A DNA stretch of 64,000 nucleotides from an uncultured Actinomycetes bacterium (GTDB lineage Bacteria > Actinomycetota > UBA4738 > HRBIN12). The notes below the pieces were generated by a model, which saw only the letters and a list, made by a program, of their open reading frames with translations, made no database searches and was not told the origin of the DNA. Within the stretch, counting starts at the first letter, position 1. Every line of letters begins with the position of its first letter. This document shows, piece after piece, positions 21,054 to 24,303 of this stretch. Location: contig CAWGFO010000012.1 in the NCBI GenBank assembly GCA_963821925.1, forward strand, positions 4,123 through 68,122. The letters run 5' to 3'. The position numbers and the translations under genes are program-made.

Positions 21054-21491
21054 ATGCACGTCGCGCAGGTCAACGTCGCGCGGATGGTGGCGCCGCTCGA
21101 CGATCCGCAACTGGCGGGGTTCGTCGCGCGCCTGGACGACATCAACGCGCTGTCCGACACCGCGCCGGGGTTCGTGTGGCGGCTGCAGACCGCCGAGGGC
21201 GACGCCACCGCGATCCGTGCCTACGACGACGACCGCATCCTGTTCAACCTGTCGGTGTGGCGGACCGTCGAGGAGCTCAGGGACTTCGTCTACCGCACCG
21301 CCCACAACGACGTGATGCGCCGGCGCGCCGAGTGGTTCGCGCGCGCCGCCGACCCGTACTACGCGCTCTGGTGGGTCGATGAAGGAGCGATCCCGAGCGT
21401 CGAGGAGGCGAAGGACCGTCTCGAGCGCCTCCGCCGCGACGGCCCGAGCCCGGCCGCGTTCACGTTCCGCCGGATCTACGAACCGGCGTGA
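21054..21491 (+). CDS. DUF3291 domain protein
   Basis: HVAQVN, PGFVWRLQ, NLSVW, ALWWV, GPSPAAFTF. Confidence 0.9.
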   Translation: MHVAQVNVARMVAPLDDPQLAGFVARLDDINALSDTAPGFVWRLQTAEGDATAIRAYDDDRILFNLSVWRTVEELRDFVYRTAHNDVMRRRAEWFARAADPYYALWWVDEGAIPSVEEAKDRLERLRRDGPSPAAFTFRRIYEPA

Positions 21492-21531
21492 CCGTCCGAG
21501 GCGACGAGGTCAAACCCGTGACCGCCCGTTG

Positions 21532-21560
21532 TTGCCATAGCGCGAGGCCTGCGGCACCAT
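21532..21560 (+). promoter_or_regulatory. Housekeeping sigma-like promoter TTGCCA-N17-CACCAT
   Basis: -35 at 21532-21537, 17-nt spacer, CANNNT-type -10 at 21555-21560; predicted start about 21567-21568. Confidence 0.5.
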
Positions 21561-21591
21561 GGCGAGCACGAGAGGAAGGAGGTGGTCCAGC

Positions 21592-21633
21592 TTGCATAGA
21601 CAGCACGAGACCCTCGAGGTGACTGGCTGCTGA
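21592..21633 (+). CDS. Putative 13-aa peptide MHRQHETLEVTGC
   Basis: Perfect SD AAGGAGGTG (21576-21584), 7-nt spacer, TTG start, TGA stop. Confidence 0.4.
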   Translation: MHRQHETLEVTGC

Positions 21634-21783
21634 GCCATCACTCGCGGGCCGAGGCTCACCACCTCGCTCGCTCGCCGGGGTGACCGGCAGAATCCACACC
21701 AGTTCACCGACCTGCGGGTTCCGGCTGGTCCACCGGACGACCTCCTCGGAGGCCGAAGTACCCGTGAGGCGAACACCGCAGCG

Positions 21784-21817
21784 ACGAGCCGGGTCCGGGA
21801 ACGGGCCCGGCTCGTTC
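21784..21817 (+). terminator. Strong hairpin, probable intrinsic (possibly bidirectional) terminator
   Basis: ACGAGCCGGGTCCG-GGAA-CGGGCCCGGCTCGT with a GNRA loop, followed by TTCG. Confidence 0.7.
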
Positions 21818-21854
21818 GCATCTCGTGGCGAGCCGTGCGACGGCCACCGCCTCG

Positions 21855-23003
21855 CTAGCGGATGATCGGCGTCGACGCCACCGCGTGCCCGGTCCGCATC
21901 GCCGGACGGTCGAGTGAGAACAGCTCGAGGTCGTCGCGCGCGACGCCGTCCGCGACGTCGGCCACGAGCGCCCCGAGCGCCGGCCCGAACTTGAAGGCGT
22001 GCCCGGAGCATCCCGCCGCGACGACGATCGGGCCGCGGCGGTCGATCGCGAAGTCGCCGTCGGGCGTCATCGTCCAGGGGTGCCGCTGCGTGAGCGCGAC
22101 GCGCGGCTCGACCGACGGCATCCGCTGGGCGAGCCATGCAAGCACCCGGGCCTCCTCCGCCTCGTCGGGCTCCCATGCCTCGACATCGGGCAGCCATGGC
22201 TCCGTGGAACCGGCGTCGAACGCGATCTTGTAGCCCACGCCCGGCACCGGATGGCCGTACACGCCGACCCCGTCGTCCCGAAGCCAGTCGACGATGCCCG
22301 GGCGACCGACGAGCTGCGGCGCCTCGAGGAACGTCACCTGGGCGACCGCCGGGGCGAGCGGGAGCTCGATGCCTGCGGCCGAGAGCAGCGCGCCCGACCA
22401 CGGTCCCGCCGCGATCACGACGCGGTCGCCGCGGAGGGTCCGGTGGTCGGTGACGACCTCCGCGTGGTCCGGACCGATCTCGAGCGCGAGGCACCGCTCG
22501 GGCATCGCGAGCTCGGCGCCCGCCCCCGTGGCGTCGGCCGCCAGCGCCCGCAACCCGGCGTCGGCGAGCACCGTGCCCCCTTCGGCGTGGAACAGCGCGC
22601 GCTCTCCGTCTCGCGGGACGATCTCGGGGAAGCGACCCTGGATGCCCGCCGGGTCGAGCTCGTCGAACGGGACATCGCCCGCGCTCATCGCGGCGGCGAG
22701 GGCATCGAGCTTCGCCTCGGGCCCCAGGTCGATCTGTCCGCTCTCGACCAGGAGGGTGACGCCCTGCTCCGCCTCGAGGCGGTGCCACCCTTCGAACGCC
22801 TCGCGTGCGAGCCGCACGTACCGCACGTCGTCGTAGGCGACCCGGGTCGAGCGCGACGCGCCGGTCGACGAGGTGACCGGATGGCCGCTCCCCCACCGGT
22901 CGATCCCGACGACGGCCCGGCCGCGTCGCGCGAGCGCCCCGGCCGTCGAGAGCCCCGTCACGCCCAGCCCCACCACGATCACATCGGTGCGTTCGGTCGC
23001 CAT
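21855..23003 (-). CDS. FAD-dependent oxidoreductase, monomeric sarcosine oxidase/SolA family
   Basis: VVGLGVTG, SSTGASRSTR, AAGPW, TPDGDF, GCSGHAFKFGP. Confidence 0.88.
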   Translation of the reverse strand: MATERTDVIVVGLGVTGLSTAGALARRGRAVVGIDRWGSGHPVTSSTGASRSTRVAYDDVRYVRLAREAFEGWHRLEAEQGVTLLVESGQIDLGPEAKLDALAAAMSAGDVPFDELDPAGIQGRFPEIVPRDGERALFHAEGGTVLADAGLRALAADATGAGAELAMPERCLALEIGPDHAEVVTDHRTLRGDRVVIAAGPWSGALLSAAGIELPLAPAVAQVTFLEAPQLVGRPGIVDWLRDDGVGVYGHPVPGVGYKIAFDAGSTEPWLPDVEAWEPDEAEEARVLAWLAQRMPSVEPRVALTQRHPWTMTPDGDFAIDRRGPIVVAAGCSGHAFKFGPALGALVADVADGVARDDLELFSLDRPAMRTGHAVASTPIIR

Positions 23004-23097
23004 CGGCCCAAGCCTCGCAGGTAGCCCCGGTGCTTGTCGGGCAGATCGGTGGGTTTCCGCAGGATCCACGAGGAGGCCGGCCGCGAGACGAGACGGG

Positions 23098-24303
23098 TCA
23101 GCCGCCAGGCACGAGCCCGTAGTCGAGATCCGGATCGCCCGGTGTCCAGGTCCCGTGGAACTGCGAGCGGTCGCCGTTGCGCCGGGCTCGCTCCAGCGCC
23201 GCCCGGCCCACCGCGAGCTGCCGCGCCTCCCACTGCAGGAGTGCCCGTTCGACCTCCATGTCAGAGGACCCGAGGGCATCCGCGAGCGCCCACGCGTCGG
23301 CCGCGGCCTTCGCCGTCCCGGCGGCGATGTGCGGGCGCACCACGAACGCCGCGTCGCCGATCAGGCAGACGCGGCCGAACGCCATCCTCGGCACGTCGAG
23401 GTCGTAGATCGCCTGCGCGAACGGCGCGGCGGCGTGCGCCACCACCTCCGCGATCGGTGGGGCGAGGTACTCGCGGGCGAACGACCGCATCTCGTCGACG
23501 TGGACCGCCCGCACCGCCCCCGGCGGCAGCGACACCTCGCGGCGCACACCGTCGCGGTCGGTCATCAGGTCCTCGAGCTCGGCGCCCTCGTAGTTCCGGT
23601 ACCAGACGAAGTTGAGCAGCCGTTCCCCTGGCTCCGTGGCACCGCCGTGCGCCGGGATCGGGTACAGCAGGATGTGGCTGTCCGCGATCACCTCGTAGAC
23701 GAGCGCGTCGCGGAAGGCGCTGAGCACCCAGGGCGGCAGCTCGGTCTCGGCCACGGTCCCTCGCCACGCCACGTACCCGGCGTAGGCGGGCCGAACCTCG
23801 GGCAGCAACCGCGCCCGGGAACCGGACCCGATCCCGTCGGCGCAGACGACGAGGTCGAACAGGTCGCTCCCGCCGTCCGCGTAGCCGACCTCGACCGTCC
23901 CATCCAGGGCGTCGATCGCCGTGACCTCGCGGCCCACGTGGTAGCGCTCACGTCCCAGGGAATCGAGCAGCGCCCGGTAGATCGTGTGCCACCCCGAGTA
24001 CCGGTAGTGCCGGGGTGCCTCGTAGACGATCGTGCCTTCCGCGTCCAGGTAGCGCAGCACCGTGGTCGAGGTCGTCACCGCATCGAGGCCGAGGTTCGTG
24101 CGCTCGCTCAGGTACCGGGAGGTCTCCGGCAGCACCACGATCCCCGCGCCGCGGGACTCGAGCTCGGCGGTCGAGCGCTCGGCGACCTCGACCTCGCACC
24201 CGAGATCGCGGAGGACGAGCGCCGCGGTCAGCCCGCCCAGCGAGCCGCCGACGATCCCGACGTTCAGGGCTTGCCGAAGACCGCGACGCGTTCGACCTTG
24301 CAC
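23098..24303 (-). CDS. FAD-dependent monooxygenase, 2,6-dihydroxypyridine 3-monooxygenase-like
   Basis: IVGGSLGG, GAGIV, ADGIGS, YAGYVAWRG, LNFVWYRN, IGDAAFVVRPHIAAGTAKA; start uncertain (GTG 24303 or CTG 24267). Confidence 0.85.
   Translation of the reverse strand: MQGRTRRGLRQALNVGIVGGSLGGLTAALVLRDLGCEVEVAERSTAELESRGAGIVVLPETSRYLSERTNLGLDAVTTSTTVLRYLDAEGTIVYEAPRHYRYSGWHTIYRALLDSLGRERYHVGREVTAIDALDGTVEVGYADGGSDLFDLVVCADGIGSGSRARLLPEVRPAYAGYVAWRGTVAETELPPWVLSAFRDALVYEVIADSHILLYPIPAHGGATEPGERLLNFVWYRNYEGAELEDLMTDRDGVRREVSLPPGAVRAVHVDEMRSFAREYLAPPIAEVVAHAAAPFAQAIYDLDVPRMAFGRVCLIGDAAFVVRPHIAAGTAKAAADAWALADALGSSDMEVERALLQWEARQLAVGRAALERARRNGDRSQFHGTWTPGDPDLDYGLVPGG

What the first reader, a model, noticed from the sequence alone, without database searches (positions are those of the whole stretch)
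21532..21817. Self-contained structured RNA unit with a sequestered-SD micro-ORF
Seen: a 360-bp gap between two convergent genes, so it cannot be the 5' leader of either. It has a TTGCCA-N17-CACCAT promoter, a perfect AAGGAGGTG SD and a 13-codon ORF (TTG 21592 to TGA 21633, MHRQHETLEVTGC). The 3' half of the ORF folds into a long hairpin (21611-21648) with the stop codon at the loop. ACCACCTC (21658-21665) is exactly complementary to GAGGTGGT, so it can sequester the SD. Downstream are a GGTGA/TCACC hairpin with a CAGAATCCACA loop, a three-way junction (CCTGCGGGT/ACCCGTGAGG enclosing TCCGG/CCGGA and CCTC-CTCG-GAGG) and a GGAA-capped terminator. Knowledge: it lacks the signatures of tRNA, tmRNA ends, SRP (GGAAGG/AGCAG) and RNase P (GAAAGTCC). 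Inference: an unassigned sRNA or dual-function RNA, for example a conditionally translated peptide, a ribosome- or RNAP-binding RNA, or a type I TA-like mRNA. The stop-in-hairpin layout loosely resembles tmRNA helix 5.
Basis: partly seen in the sequence, partly recalled or inferred. Interest (0 to 1): 0.78.

Follow-up and report, generated by a model that had tools for sequence, protein, structure and literature searches.

The report
Known small RNA with conserved mini-gene
This is a divergent copy of a small RNA family already catalogued in actinobacteria (Ms_IGR-5), whose function is still unknown, but whose unchanging ribosome-docking site and tiny 13-codon gene suggest that it works by engaging ribosomes.

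Summary
The unit is real. It is a stand-alone gene of about 250 nt (window 21568 to ~21815, + strand) between convergent genes.

It is not unassigned. It is a divergent homologue of Rfam RF02471 (Ms_IGR-5): 36.2 bits against a cut-off of 45, E 1.4e-6, full model length. A model built from its own clade finds canonical Mycobacterium and Cellulomonas members.

This scan met the family twice before on other DNA (e1-755541, e1-5202622).

- The promoter, the SD, the 13-codon ORF, the three-way junction and the terminator hairpin are all confirmed and conserved.
The GGTGA/TCACC hairpin is not conserved.
- In 137 of 137 distinct relatives the stop codon lies exactly three codons after GAG GUG, while the peptide itself varies freely.
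- The SD region pairs with all 16 nt of the organism's own 16S tail.
- RNA-library contigs from 4 studies carry the core.

Best reading: a ribosome-engaging RNA in which translation, not the peptide, matters. The function is untested.

The parts
21532..21537 (+). -35 element TTGCCA
   Evidence: Read. TTG plus three bases lies at a fixed 17-nt spacing from the -10 element in 52 of 53 distinct clade upstream sequences.
21555..21560 (+). -10 element CACCAT (family pattern NANNRT)
   Evidence: CACCAT 28, CAGCAT 9, CACGAT 5 and others. The A at position 2 and the T at position 6 are always kept. The generic sigma-70 scan misses it.
21568..21815 (+). Whole predicted RNA: from the inferred +1 A (6-8 nt after the -10 element) to the end of the terminator stem
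   Evidence: The Rfam match starts at 21568. The A is invariant in 54 of 54 rows of A1. M. smegmatis IGR-5 has a +1A by NAD captureSeq (bioRxiv 10.1101/2021.12.14.472595, passages). RNA-library contigs cover 21571-21781. The ends are inferred, not mapped.
21569..21572 (+). H1 5' strand CGAG; it pairs with 21613-21616
   Evidence: 100% paired in the clade. Family-wide pair types are AU 76/GC 7/CG 6, CG 78/AU 9, and AU 41/GC 40. These are among the top mutual-information pairs.
21573..21588 (+). AGGAAGGAGGUGGUCC: complement of the whole 16S 3' tail GGAUCACCUCCUUUCU (16 pairs, 2 of them G-U). 21573-21583 is a bulge between H1 and H1b.
   Evidence: The organism's own 16S tail was read. GGAGGTGGTCC is invariant in A1. 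Note that it was also the anchor of the pattern search.
21584..21587 (+). H1b 5' strand GGUC; it pairs with GACC 21609-21612 and closes the loop that holds the start codon
   Evidence: Invariant in the clade. GUC/GAC is kept in 93-94 of 94 sequences family-wide. The outer pair is not kept outside the clade.
21592..21633 (+). Mini-ORF: UUG start, 13 codons, UGA stop (MHRQHETLEVTGC)
   Evidence: The stop is fixed 3 codons after GAG GUG in 137 of 137 distinct relatives. A canonical in-frame start in the loop is present in 122 of 137.
21613..21616 (+). H1 3' strand CUCG (codon Leu plus the G of GAG)
21616..21621 (+). Invariant GAGGUG, a second SD-like site. It lies 9 nt before the stop codon.
   Evidence: Invariant in A1. 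It was part of the search anchor, so its constancy outside the clade is partly by selection.
21618..21626 (+). P2 5' strand GGUGACUGG (last ORF codons)
   Evidence: 99.2% paired in the clade. Family-wide 96-99% paired with many pair types, for example CG 60/GC 17/UG 12/AU 2/UA 2. Top mutual-information pairs.
21644..21671 (+). P5 hairpin. Its loop CUCACCA (21655-21661) and 3' stem carry the anti-SD-like ACCACCUC (21658-21665).
   Evidence: 92.5% paired, and 6 of 9 pairs show compensatory changes. CACCT lies in the interior of 20 of 52 clade sequences, against 1.9 expected.
21674..21688 (+). P4 hairpin GCCGG/CCGGC with loop GGUGA
   Evidence: 91.4% paired. The outer pair shows UA 32/CG 5 and is unpaired in 17, including this window.
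21690..21695 (+). Conserved single-stranded GAAUCC (family GAAUYCC), just before the P2 3' strand
   Evidence: Junction tally; conserved columns.
21699..21708 (+). P2 3' strand CCAG-U-UCACC (the UCACC resembles the 16S anti-SD)
21711..21769 (+). Three-way junction: closing stem 21711-21719/21760-21769, hairpin 21720-21737, hairpin 21741-21752
   Evidence: The three helices are 93.0%, 95.9% and 81.9% paired. Compensatory changes occur in 7 of 9, 3 of 5 and 4 of 4 of their pairs.
21784..21815 (+). GC-rich terminator-like hairpin with GGAA loop and no U tract
   Evidence: 89.8% paired, and 12 of 14 pairs show compensatory changes. The rule-based scan does not call it.

Best explanation
The region is a stand-alone gene for a structured RNA of about 250 nt. 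This RNA is a divergent subfamily of the Ms_IGR-5 family (Rfam RF02471).

The RNA doubles as a miniature mRNA. Its 5' end folds into a rod (H1, H1b). From the rod an 11-nt bulge presents a sequence that, together with the next five bases, pairs with the entire 16-nt 3' tail of the cell's own 16S rRNA. The start codon sits in the loop above the bulge. The 13 codons run through the 3' strands of H1b and H1 and the 5' strand of the long-range helix P2. The stop codon is fixed three codons after an invariant second SD-like GAGGUG.

My reading is that 30S subunits dock on the bulge and translate the mini-ORF, and that the act of ribosome binding and passage is the function, not the peptide. A ribosome must unzip H1, H1b and P2, which frees the UCACC-containing 3' strand and the 3' domain. 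At the stop codon, GAGGUG lies at SD-like spacing from the P site.

What is shown: homology, conservation, the covarying helices, the frame constraints, and presence in RNA libraries.
What is inferred: translation in this organism, the structural switch, and any downstream effect.

Rough odds: homologue of Ms_IGR-5 0.9; expressed as its own RNA 0.85; ORF translated 0.6; function through ribosome engagement or switching rather than through the peptide 0.4. The single confidence figure of 0.5 is for the statement as a whole.
For: Homology:
- RF02471 matches at 36.2 bits, E 1.4e-6, model positions 1-184 of 184.
- Model R1, built from this clade alone, hits 94 of 100 loci, 87 of them outside the clade. 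These include Mycobacterium L045, which Rfam scores at 176.5 bits.

Stand-alone gene:
- The neighbours are convergent.
- The promoter is conserved in 52 of 53 and the terminator stem covaries.
- There is one copy in the genome.
- It is found in 116 of 151 sampled genomes of the class and in 18 of 18 of the genus.
- Neighbouring genes vary.

Structure:
- Family alignment A3 is 90.7% paired, and 24 of 33 pairs show compensatory changes. 0 of 500 shuffles reach this, and slid controls reach at most 50.8%.
- The H1 and P2 pairs are the top Watson-Crick mutual-information pairs.

ORF:
- The stop lies exactly 3 codons after GAG GUG in 137 of 137 distinct sequences (TAG 95, TGA 36, TAA 6).
- A canonical in-frame start lies in the loop in 122 of 137, against 49 and 1 of 137 in the other two frames.
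- 12 of the 14 sequences without one have CTG at the homologous in-frame place (read from the output).
- The peptide is not constrained: 38 distinct nucleotide versions of the variable codons give 33 distinct peptides.

Ribosome link:
- The organism's own 16S tail is GGAUCACCUCCUUUCU.
- Ribosome footprints on Ms_IGR-5 homologues are reported in M. abscessus and M. smegmatis (PMC4974804, passage).

Expression:
- Contigs from 4 of 4 RNA libraries laid (4 studies) cover 21571-21781 at 99-100% identity.
- Family members were validated by RNA-seq in S. lividans (PMC8079986) and as an sRNA transcription unit in S. avermitilis (PMC8780764).
Against: - The score is below Rfam's curated cut-off (36.2 against 45).
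- There are no translation data for this organism.
- 14 of 137 relatives lack ATG, GTG or TTG in frame. One has its TTG out of frame (L042, from a genome flagged unpublished) and one has no NUG at the expected place (L068).
- The constant stop and the GAGGUG could in part reflect RNA-structure constraints around a local palindrome.
- GAGGUG and the SD were the anchors of the pattern search, so their invariance outside the clade is partly circular.
- Alignment A3 was fitted to the model's structure.
- Thermodynamic folding of this sequence prefers another fold by about 15 kcal/mol. P2 appears in the single-sequence MFE of only 3 of 52 clade members, against 81 of 102 others.
- A 13-nt near-complement of the 16S tail is not unique in this genome: 22 sites have at most 1 mismatch, against 2 in the control.
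- RNA-library contigs do not prove transcription, because DNA carry-over was not controlled.
- No phenotype, partner or target is known for any family member. The NAD-capping preprint calls IGR-5 'uncharacterized'.
Confidence: 0.5

Rival explanations
1. A purely non-coding regulatory RNA (base-pairing or protein-binding). The SD-like and start- or stop-like triplets would be structural or binding elements, and the ORF would not be meaningfully translated.
For: - The strongest constraints are at the RNA level. H1 and P2 covary, and they dictate the codons before and after GAG GUG.
- The peptide varies freely.
- 12 relatives have CTG at the start position and two have no usable start.
- The SD is predicted to be mostly paired in single-sequence folds: mean 6.6 of 8 nt in the clade and 5.98 elsewhere.
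- Rfam and all papers seen treat it as an sRNA.
Against: - A stop codon of any of the three kinds is kept at one exact codon position in 137 of 137. It is kept even across a 1-nt indel right after it, TGAGCC versus TAGCC.
- The start varies only in its first base (N-UG), as start codons do.
- The frame is open in the expected frame far more often than in the control frames.
- Ribosome footprints are reported for homologues (PMC4974804, passage).
Confidence: 0.2
2. A sponge for the 16S tail or for 30S subunits. The RNA would hold 30S subunits or 70S ribosomes through its 16-nt complement, much as 6S RNA or Ms1 holds RNA polymerase. Productive translation would be secondary.
For: - The RNA is complementary to the full 16S tail and this sequence is invariant across phyla.
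- A second SD-like site and anti-SD-like motifs lie inside the RNA. CACCT is found in 20 of 52 and 29 of 101 sequences, against 1.9 and 3.4 expected.
- The gene is near-core and single-copy.
Against: - Abundance is unknown. A sponge must be plentiful.
- The exactly kept stop position is not needed for a sponge.
- Other sites in the genome have similarly long SDs.
Confidence: 0.15
3. A small-protein gene whose 12-16-residue peptide is the active product.
For: A strong SD, a start, a fixed stop and a '..T-x-E-V-x-x-x' end are kept in several phyla.
Against: - The kept residues are exactly those encoded by RNA-constrained bases (GAC of H1b, GAGGUG).
- The residue before E follows the H1 covariation (C, R, L, P, S).
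- 38 nucleotide variants of the variable codons give 33 peptides.
- About 200 nt of covarying structure downstream would be left unexplained.
Confidence: 0.07
4. A type I toxin-antitoxin-like mRNA, or a cis-acting leader or attenuator of a neighbouring gene.
For: A short ORF with a possibly sequestered SD resembles type I toxin mRNAs. Translation-coupled refolding resembles attenuators.
Against: - Both neighbours converge on the RNA.
- It has its own terminator and variable neighbours.
- The peptide is short, polar and not conserved.
- No antisense gene, repeat or second copy was found.
- It is near-core in the lineage.
Confidence: 0.02

Closest known systems
Ms_IGR-5 sRNA, Rfam RF02471 (M. 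smegmatis IGR-5 = ncMSMEG15794c, between MSMEG_5794 and MSMEG_5795)
   Same: - A full-length, significant match, and a reciprocal match with a clade-built model.
- The same invariant SD block, GAGGUG, GAAUYCC and UCACC.
- The same covarying helices H1 and P2.
- The same mini-ORF with a fixed stop.
- A likely +1A start, as reported for IGR-5.
   Different: - It scores below the Rfam cut-off. In the class sample only 1 of 151 genomes has a match over the cut-off.
- The ORF has 13 codons rather than 12, and the stop is mostly UGA.
- There is an extra hairpin (P5) between the stop and P4.
- The 3' domain is a three-way junction followed by a separate terminator hairpin.
- One genome (G152) carries both types on one contig.
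- The helices H1 and P2 found here are not the ones in Rfam's consensus line.
Dual-function sRNAs with a small ORF (SgrS/SgrT, RNAIII/hld, SR1/SR1P; recalled, not searched here)
   Same: A stand-alone structured sRNA that also carries a short translated frame.
   Different: In those cases the peptide is conserved and active, and the RNA has a separate base-pairing seed. Here the peptide is unconstrained, the ORF is built into the conserved helices, and no target is known.
tmRNA
   Same: A structured RNA with a short frame whose stop lies at a hairpin, and one that engages ribosomes.
   Different: There is no tRNA-like domain and no resume codon. This RNA has an SD and a start codon instead. 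ARAGORN finds no tmRNA and Rfam gives no tmRNA match.
6S RNA and Ms1 (RNA mimics that hold RNA polymerase; Ms1: PMC4191392, seen in the search listing only)
   Same: A widely conserved, stand-alone, highly structured RNA that looks built to bind a core machine. It combines an SD with an anti-SD-like strand.
   Different: The presumed partner is the ribosome, not RNA polymerase. No binding data exist.
Translation-coupled leader switches (for example erm or trp leader peptides; recalled)
   Same: A short ORF whose translation must remodel alternative helices.
   Different: There is no downstream gene to regulate, and the unit ends in its own terminator between convergent genes.

Membership tests
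Ms_IGR-5 (Rfam RF02471) | Covariance-model score at or above the curated gathering cut-off (45 bits) | tested here: not met
   36.2 bits. No match at gathering level anywhere in the window. This is an operational cut-off, so I file the RNA as a divergent homologue or subfamily, not as a member by Rfam's rule.
Ms_IGR-5 (Rfam RF02471) | Significant, end-to-end alignment to the model | tested here: met
   E 1.4e-6, model positions 1-184 of 184, window 21568-21761 +.
Ms_IGR-5 (Rfam RF02471) | Reciprocal detection: a model of this clade finds accepted members | tested here: met
   R1 hits 94 of 100 loci at E <= 0.01, including L045 (Rfam 176.5 bits), L050 (66.8), L064 (57.3) and L024 (74). Six loci were missed: L062, L069, L150, L100, L108, L136. 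All six are from non-actinobacterial MAGs.
Ms_IGR-5 (Rfam RF02471) | Shared secondary structure supported by covariation | tested here: met
   H1 and P2 are kept and covary across clades. The alignment was fitted to the model, but the slid controls reach at most 50.8% against 90.7%.
Ms_IGR-5 (Rfam RF02471) | Expressed as a discrete small RNA | tested here: inconclusive
   RNA-library contigs from 4 studies cover 21571-21781. Contigs cannot show ends or exclude DNA. Family members were validated elsewhere.
tmRNA | tRNA-like domain with tag-peptide frame | tested here: not met
   ARAGORN finds 0 genes in 21300-22000. No Rfam tmRNA match up to E 10.
Type I toxin-antitoxin | Small hydrophobic toxin peptide plus a cis- or trans-antisense RNA | tested here: not met
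   The peptide MHRQHETLEVTGC is polar and variable. The antisense ORFs have no Pfam match. No antisense promoter was found by the scan. Toxicity is not testable here.
Cis-regulatory leader, attenuator or riboswitch | Lies upstream of, and on the same strand as, the regulated gene | tested here: not met
   The downstream gene is on the opposite strand (DAO oxidoreductase, 21855-23279 -) and the upstream gene ends at 21491.

The most novel reading that the evidence does not exclude
Ms_IGR-5-type RNAs would be a multi-phylum 'ribosome counterpart of 6S RNA'. They would be near-core RNAs that dock on the entire 16S 3' tail and are test-translated through a 12-16-codon frame. That frame forms the RNA's own helices, including an internal SD/anti-SD mimic (GGUG/CACC). 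Ribosome occupancy would flip the RNA between two states, and so report or buffer the pool of translation-competent 30S subunits. The clade in this window would be a second, paralogous version of that device.
Probability: 0.15. Interest if true: 0.85.

Novelty: new variant of a known kind. Interest (0 to 1): 0.5.

Why it matters
Ms_IGR-5 has been in Rfam since its discovery in M. smegmatis. Every paper I could find still treats it as an uncharacterized sRNA.

The comparative picture here suggests something more specific. The family has an invariant complement to the whole 16S tail, a mini-ORF whose start and stop are kept while its peptide drifts, and helices made of the ORF's own codons. It reaches beyond Actinomycetota into Acidobacteriota, Nitrospirota and Myxococcota MAGs. 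This points to an old, ribosome-directed RNA whose role is unknown.

For this window the practical gains are three:
- A clade-specific model finds the RNA in 116 of 151 genomes, where Rfam's model finds 57 and accepts 1.
- The secondary structure is revised.
- There is evidence that two subfamilies can coexist in one genome.

The hypothesis is directly testable in M. smegmatis or Streptomyces.

Tried and rejected
- **Rfam at gathering level:** no hit in the window.
- **Generic promoter and terminator scans:** 0 and 0. The promoter and terminator were accepted on conservation instead.
- **SD:anti-SD sequestration as a conserved feature:** the duplex energy against shuffles has a mean z of -0.81, and 31 of 144 sequences fall below -1.64. 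This window scores z -0.78. I keep it only as a possible alternative state.
- **Pseudoknot or other long-range contact:** the mutual-information scan of A3 gave no Watson-Crick pair beyond H1 and P2. The 'pseudoknotted fold' noted in e1-5202622 was therefore not reproduced here.
- **A P3 pairing (CUGCU with GGCAG) and a small stop-codon hairpin (GGCU/AGCC):** both are plausible by eye in several clades, but their registers differ and they overlap P2 or P4. I did not pursue them.
- **The H1 count** (0 of 52, 6 of 102) probably suffers from my indexing. I do not use it.
- **Overlapping ORFs** on either strand (478, 103 and 61 aa): no Pfam family.
- **tRNA or tmRNA:** none.
- **Second copies in the genome:** only two matches, at E 0.69 and 0.97, taken as noise.
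- **Read laying:** no RNA-library contig covered 21400-21416 or 21791-21900, and only one low-depth contig (X15, 7 differences) covered 21418-21598. Absence of cover proves nothing, no DNA run was laid, and contig ends at 21759-21781 cannot be read as RNA 3' ends.
- **The search of earlier findings by sequence:** nothing.
- **Li et al. 2013 (PMC3527728):** not held, so the original description is known to me only through citing papers.
- **Supplementary tables:** I did not request any. Dataset S2 of PMC4974804 and Table S4 of PMC10454040 may hold footprint counts and coordinates.
- **Literature searches for a described function:**
  - 'Ms_IGR-5': 3 papers.
  - 'RF02471': 1 paper.
  - ncRv10812, ncRv0812, ncMSMEG15794c, ncRv10813, ncRv0813: 1 paper.
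  - MSMEG_5794 / MSMEG_5795: 4 papers.
  - A generic five-term search: 24 papers, listing only.
  - None describes the mini-ORF or a function.
- **Not attempted:** complex prediction, protein searches and structure prediction. The peptide is too short.
Full report
**What is in the sequence**

- TTGCCA 21532-21537, a 17-nt spacer, CACCAT 21555-21560.
- AAGGAGGTG 21576-21584.
- A TTG-started 13-codon frame, 21592-21633, ending in TGA.
- ACCACCTC 21658-21665.
- A three-way junction, 21711-21769.
- A GGAA-capped GC-rich hairpin, 21784-21815.

The flanking genes converge on the region. A DUF3291 gene ends at 21491 on the + strand. A DAO-type FAD oxidoreductase gene ends at 21855 on the - strand. 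This leaves 363 nt between them. The three ORFs that overlap the region have no Pfam match, and ARAGORN finds no tRNA or tmRNA. The + strand folds better than shuffles, with z -3.67.

**Identity**

At Rfam's gathering thresholds the 64-kb window has no match. With E-value reporting, the region matches RF02471, 'Actinobacteria sRNA Ms_IGR-5'. The match spans 21568-21761 (+) and the full model (1-184). It scores 36.2 bits against a cut-off of 45, with E 1.4e-6.

The same model finds one copy in the genome. It finds sub-threshold copies in 22 of 41 relatives and in 57 of 151 genomes sampled from the class. Only one of those 151 is over the cut-off.

They include:
- Actinomycetes: Mycobacterium, Cellulomonas, Kineococcus, Nocardioides, Saccharothrix, Gordonia, Rhodococcus.
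- Acidimicrobiia and Thermoleophilia MAGs.
- A few MAGs labelled Acidobacteriota, Terriglobia, Nitrospirae or Myxococcota.

Of 13 such loci scanned with Rfam, 4 pass the cut-off: Mycobacterium 176.5 bits, Cellulomonas 66.8, Luteococcus 57.3, and L024 74.

I built a covariance model (R1) from 54 sequences of the window's own clade. It hits 94 of 100 loci at E <= 0.01, and 87 of these lie outside the clade, among them the canonical members. Homology to Ms_IGR-5 is therefore well supported, although Rfam's curated threshold is not met.

R1 finds the RNA in 116 of 151 genomes of the class sample. That is 79 of 101 good-quality genomes and 18 of 18 in the genus. It is nearly always single-copy.

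One genome, G152, has both a window-type copy (149.3 bits with R1) and a canonical copy (74 bits with Rfam) on the same contig. The window's type therefore looks like a distinct subfamily.

**Structure**

In the clade alignment A1 (54 rows), a structure of ten helices is 93.4% paired. Compensatory changes occur in 37 of its 65 pairs. 0 of 500 shuffles reach this, and slid controls reach at most 52.5%.

The supported helices are:
- **H1:** the first bases of the RNA, CGAG 21569-21572, pair with CUCG 21613-21616.
- **H1b:** GGUC 21584-21587 pairs with GACC 21609-21612.
- **P2:** GGUGACUGG 21618-21626 pairs with CCAG-U-UCACC 21699-21708.

In the family-wide alignment A3 (94 sequences), H1 and P2 stay 96-99% paired through many pair types. 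An unbiased mutual-information scan ranks exactly these pairs on top. A3 was fitted to the model, which favours the structure. Even so, the slid controls reach only 50.8% against 90.7%.

- Long hairpin 21611-21648: pairing potential is kept (89.3%), but there is no compensatory change.
- SD:anti-SD duplex: 78.3% paired, and the SD side is invariant, so covariation is impossible. In this sequence it is no better than shuffles, z -0.78.
- GGTGA/TCACC hairpin: not conserved.

These three elements are nevertheless the predicted minimum-energy fold of this RNA, at -124.0 kcal/mol. The covariation-supported fold scores -108.8 kcal/mol when enforced. They could be an alternative state.

An anti-SD-like CACCU in the interior hairpin is enriched. 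It occurs in 20 of 52 clade sequences against 1.9 expected, and in 29 of 101 others against 3.4 expected. It is not universal.

**The mini-ORF**

Across 137 distinct relatives the first stop in the GAG GUG frame lies exactly three codons after GUG in all 137 (TAG 95, TGA 36, TAA 6). It is kept even where a base is lost right behind it.

A canonical in-frame start lies in the H1b loop in 122 of 137. The other two frames give 49 and 1. The start is TTG 91 times, ATG 23 and GTG 9. Twelve of the fourteen remaining sequences have CTG at the homologous in-frame position. One has its TTG out of frame (L042, from a genome flagged unpublished), and one has none (L068). ORF lengths are 12-15 codons, with one exception of 6.

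The peptide itself is not conserved. In the clade, 38 nucleotide versions of the variable codons give 33 peptides. The 'conserved' residues T, E and V are those encoded by H1b and GAGGUG. The residue before E follows the H1 covariation.

So the signals for starting and stopping translation are kept, but the product is not.

**Link to the ribosome**

The genome's own 16S rRNA ends in GGAUCACCUCCUUUCU. AGGAAGGAGGUGGUCC (21573-21588) can pair with all 16 of these bases, two pairs being G-U. The first 11 bases are the bulge between H1 and H1b.

GAGGUG, 9 nt before the stop, is a second SD-like site, and inside the RNA it is paired with UCACC. That a terminating ribosome could re-pair with it is my inference from the known SD-to-P-site spacing.

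A long SD is not unique here. 22 sites in the genome match the 13-nt tail or its complement with at most one mismatch, against 2 for the control.

**Expression and literature**

Contigs from 4 of 4 RNA libraries laid (four studies: paddy, sediments, ice) cover 21571-21781 at 99-100% identity. Contigs cannot prove transcription or define ends.

From passages of papers:
- An Ms_IGR-5 copy is RNA-seq-validated in S. lividans (PMC8079986).
- It is an sRNA transcription unit in S. avermitilis (PMC8780764).
- It carries ribosome footprints in M. abscessus and M. smegmatis (PMC4974804).
- It corresponds to ncMSMEG15794c (PMC10454040).
- It is NAD-capped with a +1A and 'uncharacterized' (bioRxiv 10.1101/2021.12.14.472595).

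The +1A fits the invariant A at 21568. The original paper (Li et al. 2013) is not held. Five searches found no description of the mini-ORF or of a function.

In Mycobacterium the RNA follows a class IV aminotransferase gene on the same strand in 44 loci. In the window's clade the neighbours vary.

**Verdict**

This is a real, conserved, probably expressed RNA gene. It is a new, sub-threshold variant of a known family of unknown function.

The most likely mode of action is engagement of ribosomes and translation-coupled refolding, with the peptide incidental. That step is inferred.

This scan reached the same family twice before on other DNA (e1-755541, e1-5202622).

Three rows of A1 and A2 (L028, L031, L042) and parts of the tallies come from genomes flagged unpublished. 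Only the single out-of-frame exception (L042) rests on one of them.

Noticed in passing
G152 contig C5: 752365-752504 (L168) and 93958-94104 (L169/L024): One genome of the same family carries both a window-type copy (149.3 bits with R1, 21.8 with Rfam) and a canonical Ms_IGR-5 copy (74 bits with Rfam) on the same contig. The two types therefore look like paralogues rather than one diverging orthologue.
   Followed up: partly
L062, L069, L150, L088, L110, L112, L136, L100, L133, L108: MAG contigs labelled Acidobacteriota/Thermoanaerobaculia, Terriglobia/Bryobacteraceae, Nitrospirae and Myxococcota carry the same SD block, a 12-15-codon frame, GAG GUG and a stop three codons later. In L062 an H1-like and a P2-like pairing are visible by eye. 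None of the five of these that were scanned passes Rfam's cut-off. R1 hits only L088, L110 and L112; it misses six others, and L133 was not searched.
   Followed up: partly
L104: A MAG labelled Gammaproteobacteria holds a Mycobacterium-type copy that is nearly identical to mycobacterial ones. This may be a binning contaminant.
   Followed up: no
own genome, 22 sites listed: The 13-nt 16S-tail sequence or its complement occurs 22 times with at most one mismatch, against 2 for the reversed control. GGATCGCCTCCTT occurs five times. This organism seems to use unusually long Shine-Dalgarno sequences at a set of genes.
   Followed up: no
window 21759-21781: RNA-library contigs from four studies all end between 21759 and 21781, before the terminator hairpin (21784-21815). 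One contig carries adapter letters right after 21781, and others carry them right before 21571 and 21583. This could mean a processed 3' end, or only strain variation that breaks the contigs.
   Followed up: no
L045-L164, Mycobacterium loci (for example L059:2-796): In 44 loci, mostly mycobacterial, the RNA lies about 45 nt downstream of a same-strand ORF of one family, a class IV aminotransferase gene in L059 (Pfam PF01063). In L059 a THAP4-like heme-binding-domain gene lies on the opposite strand further on.
   Followed up: partly
window 21573-21583: The bulge AGGAAGGAGG partly fits the A-R-N repeat pattern bound by E. coli Hfq (recalled). This might explain why the family was first recovered by pull-down with a foreign Hfq.
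   Followed up: no
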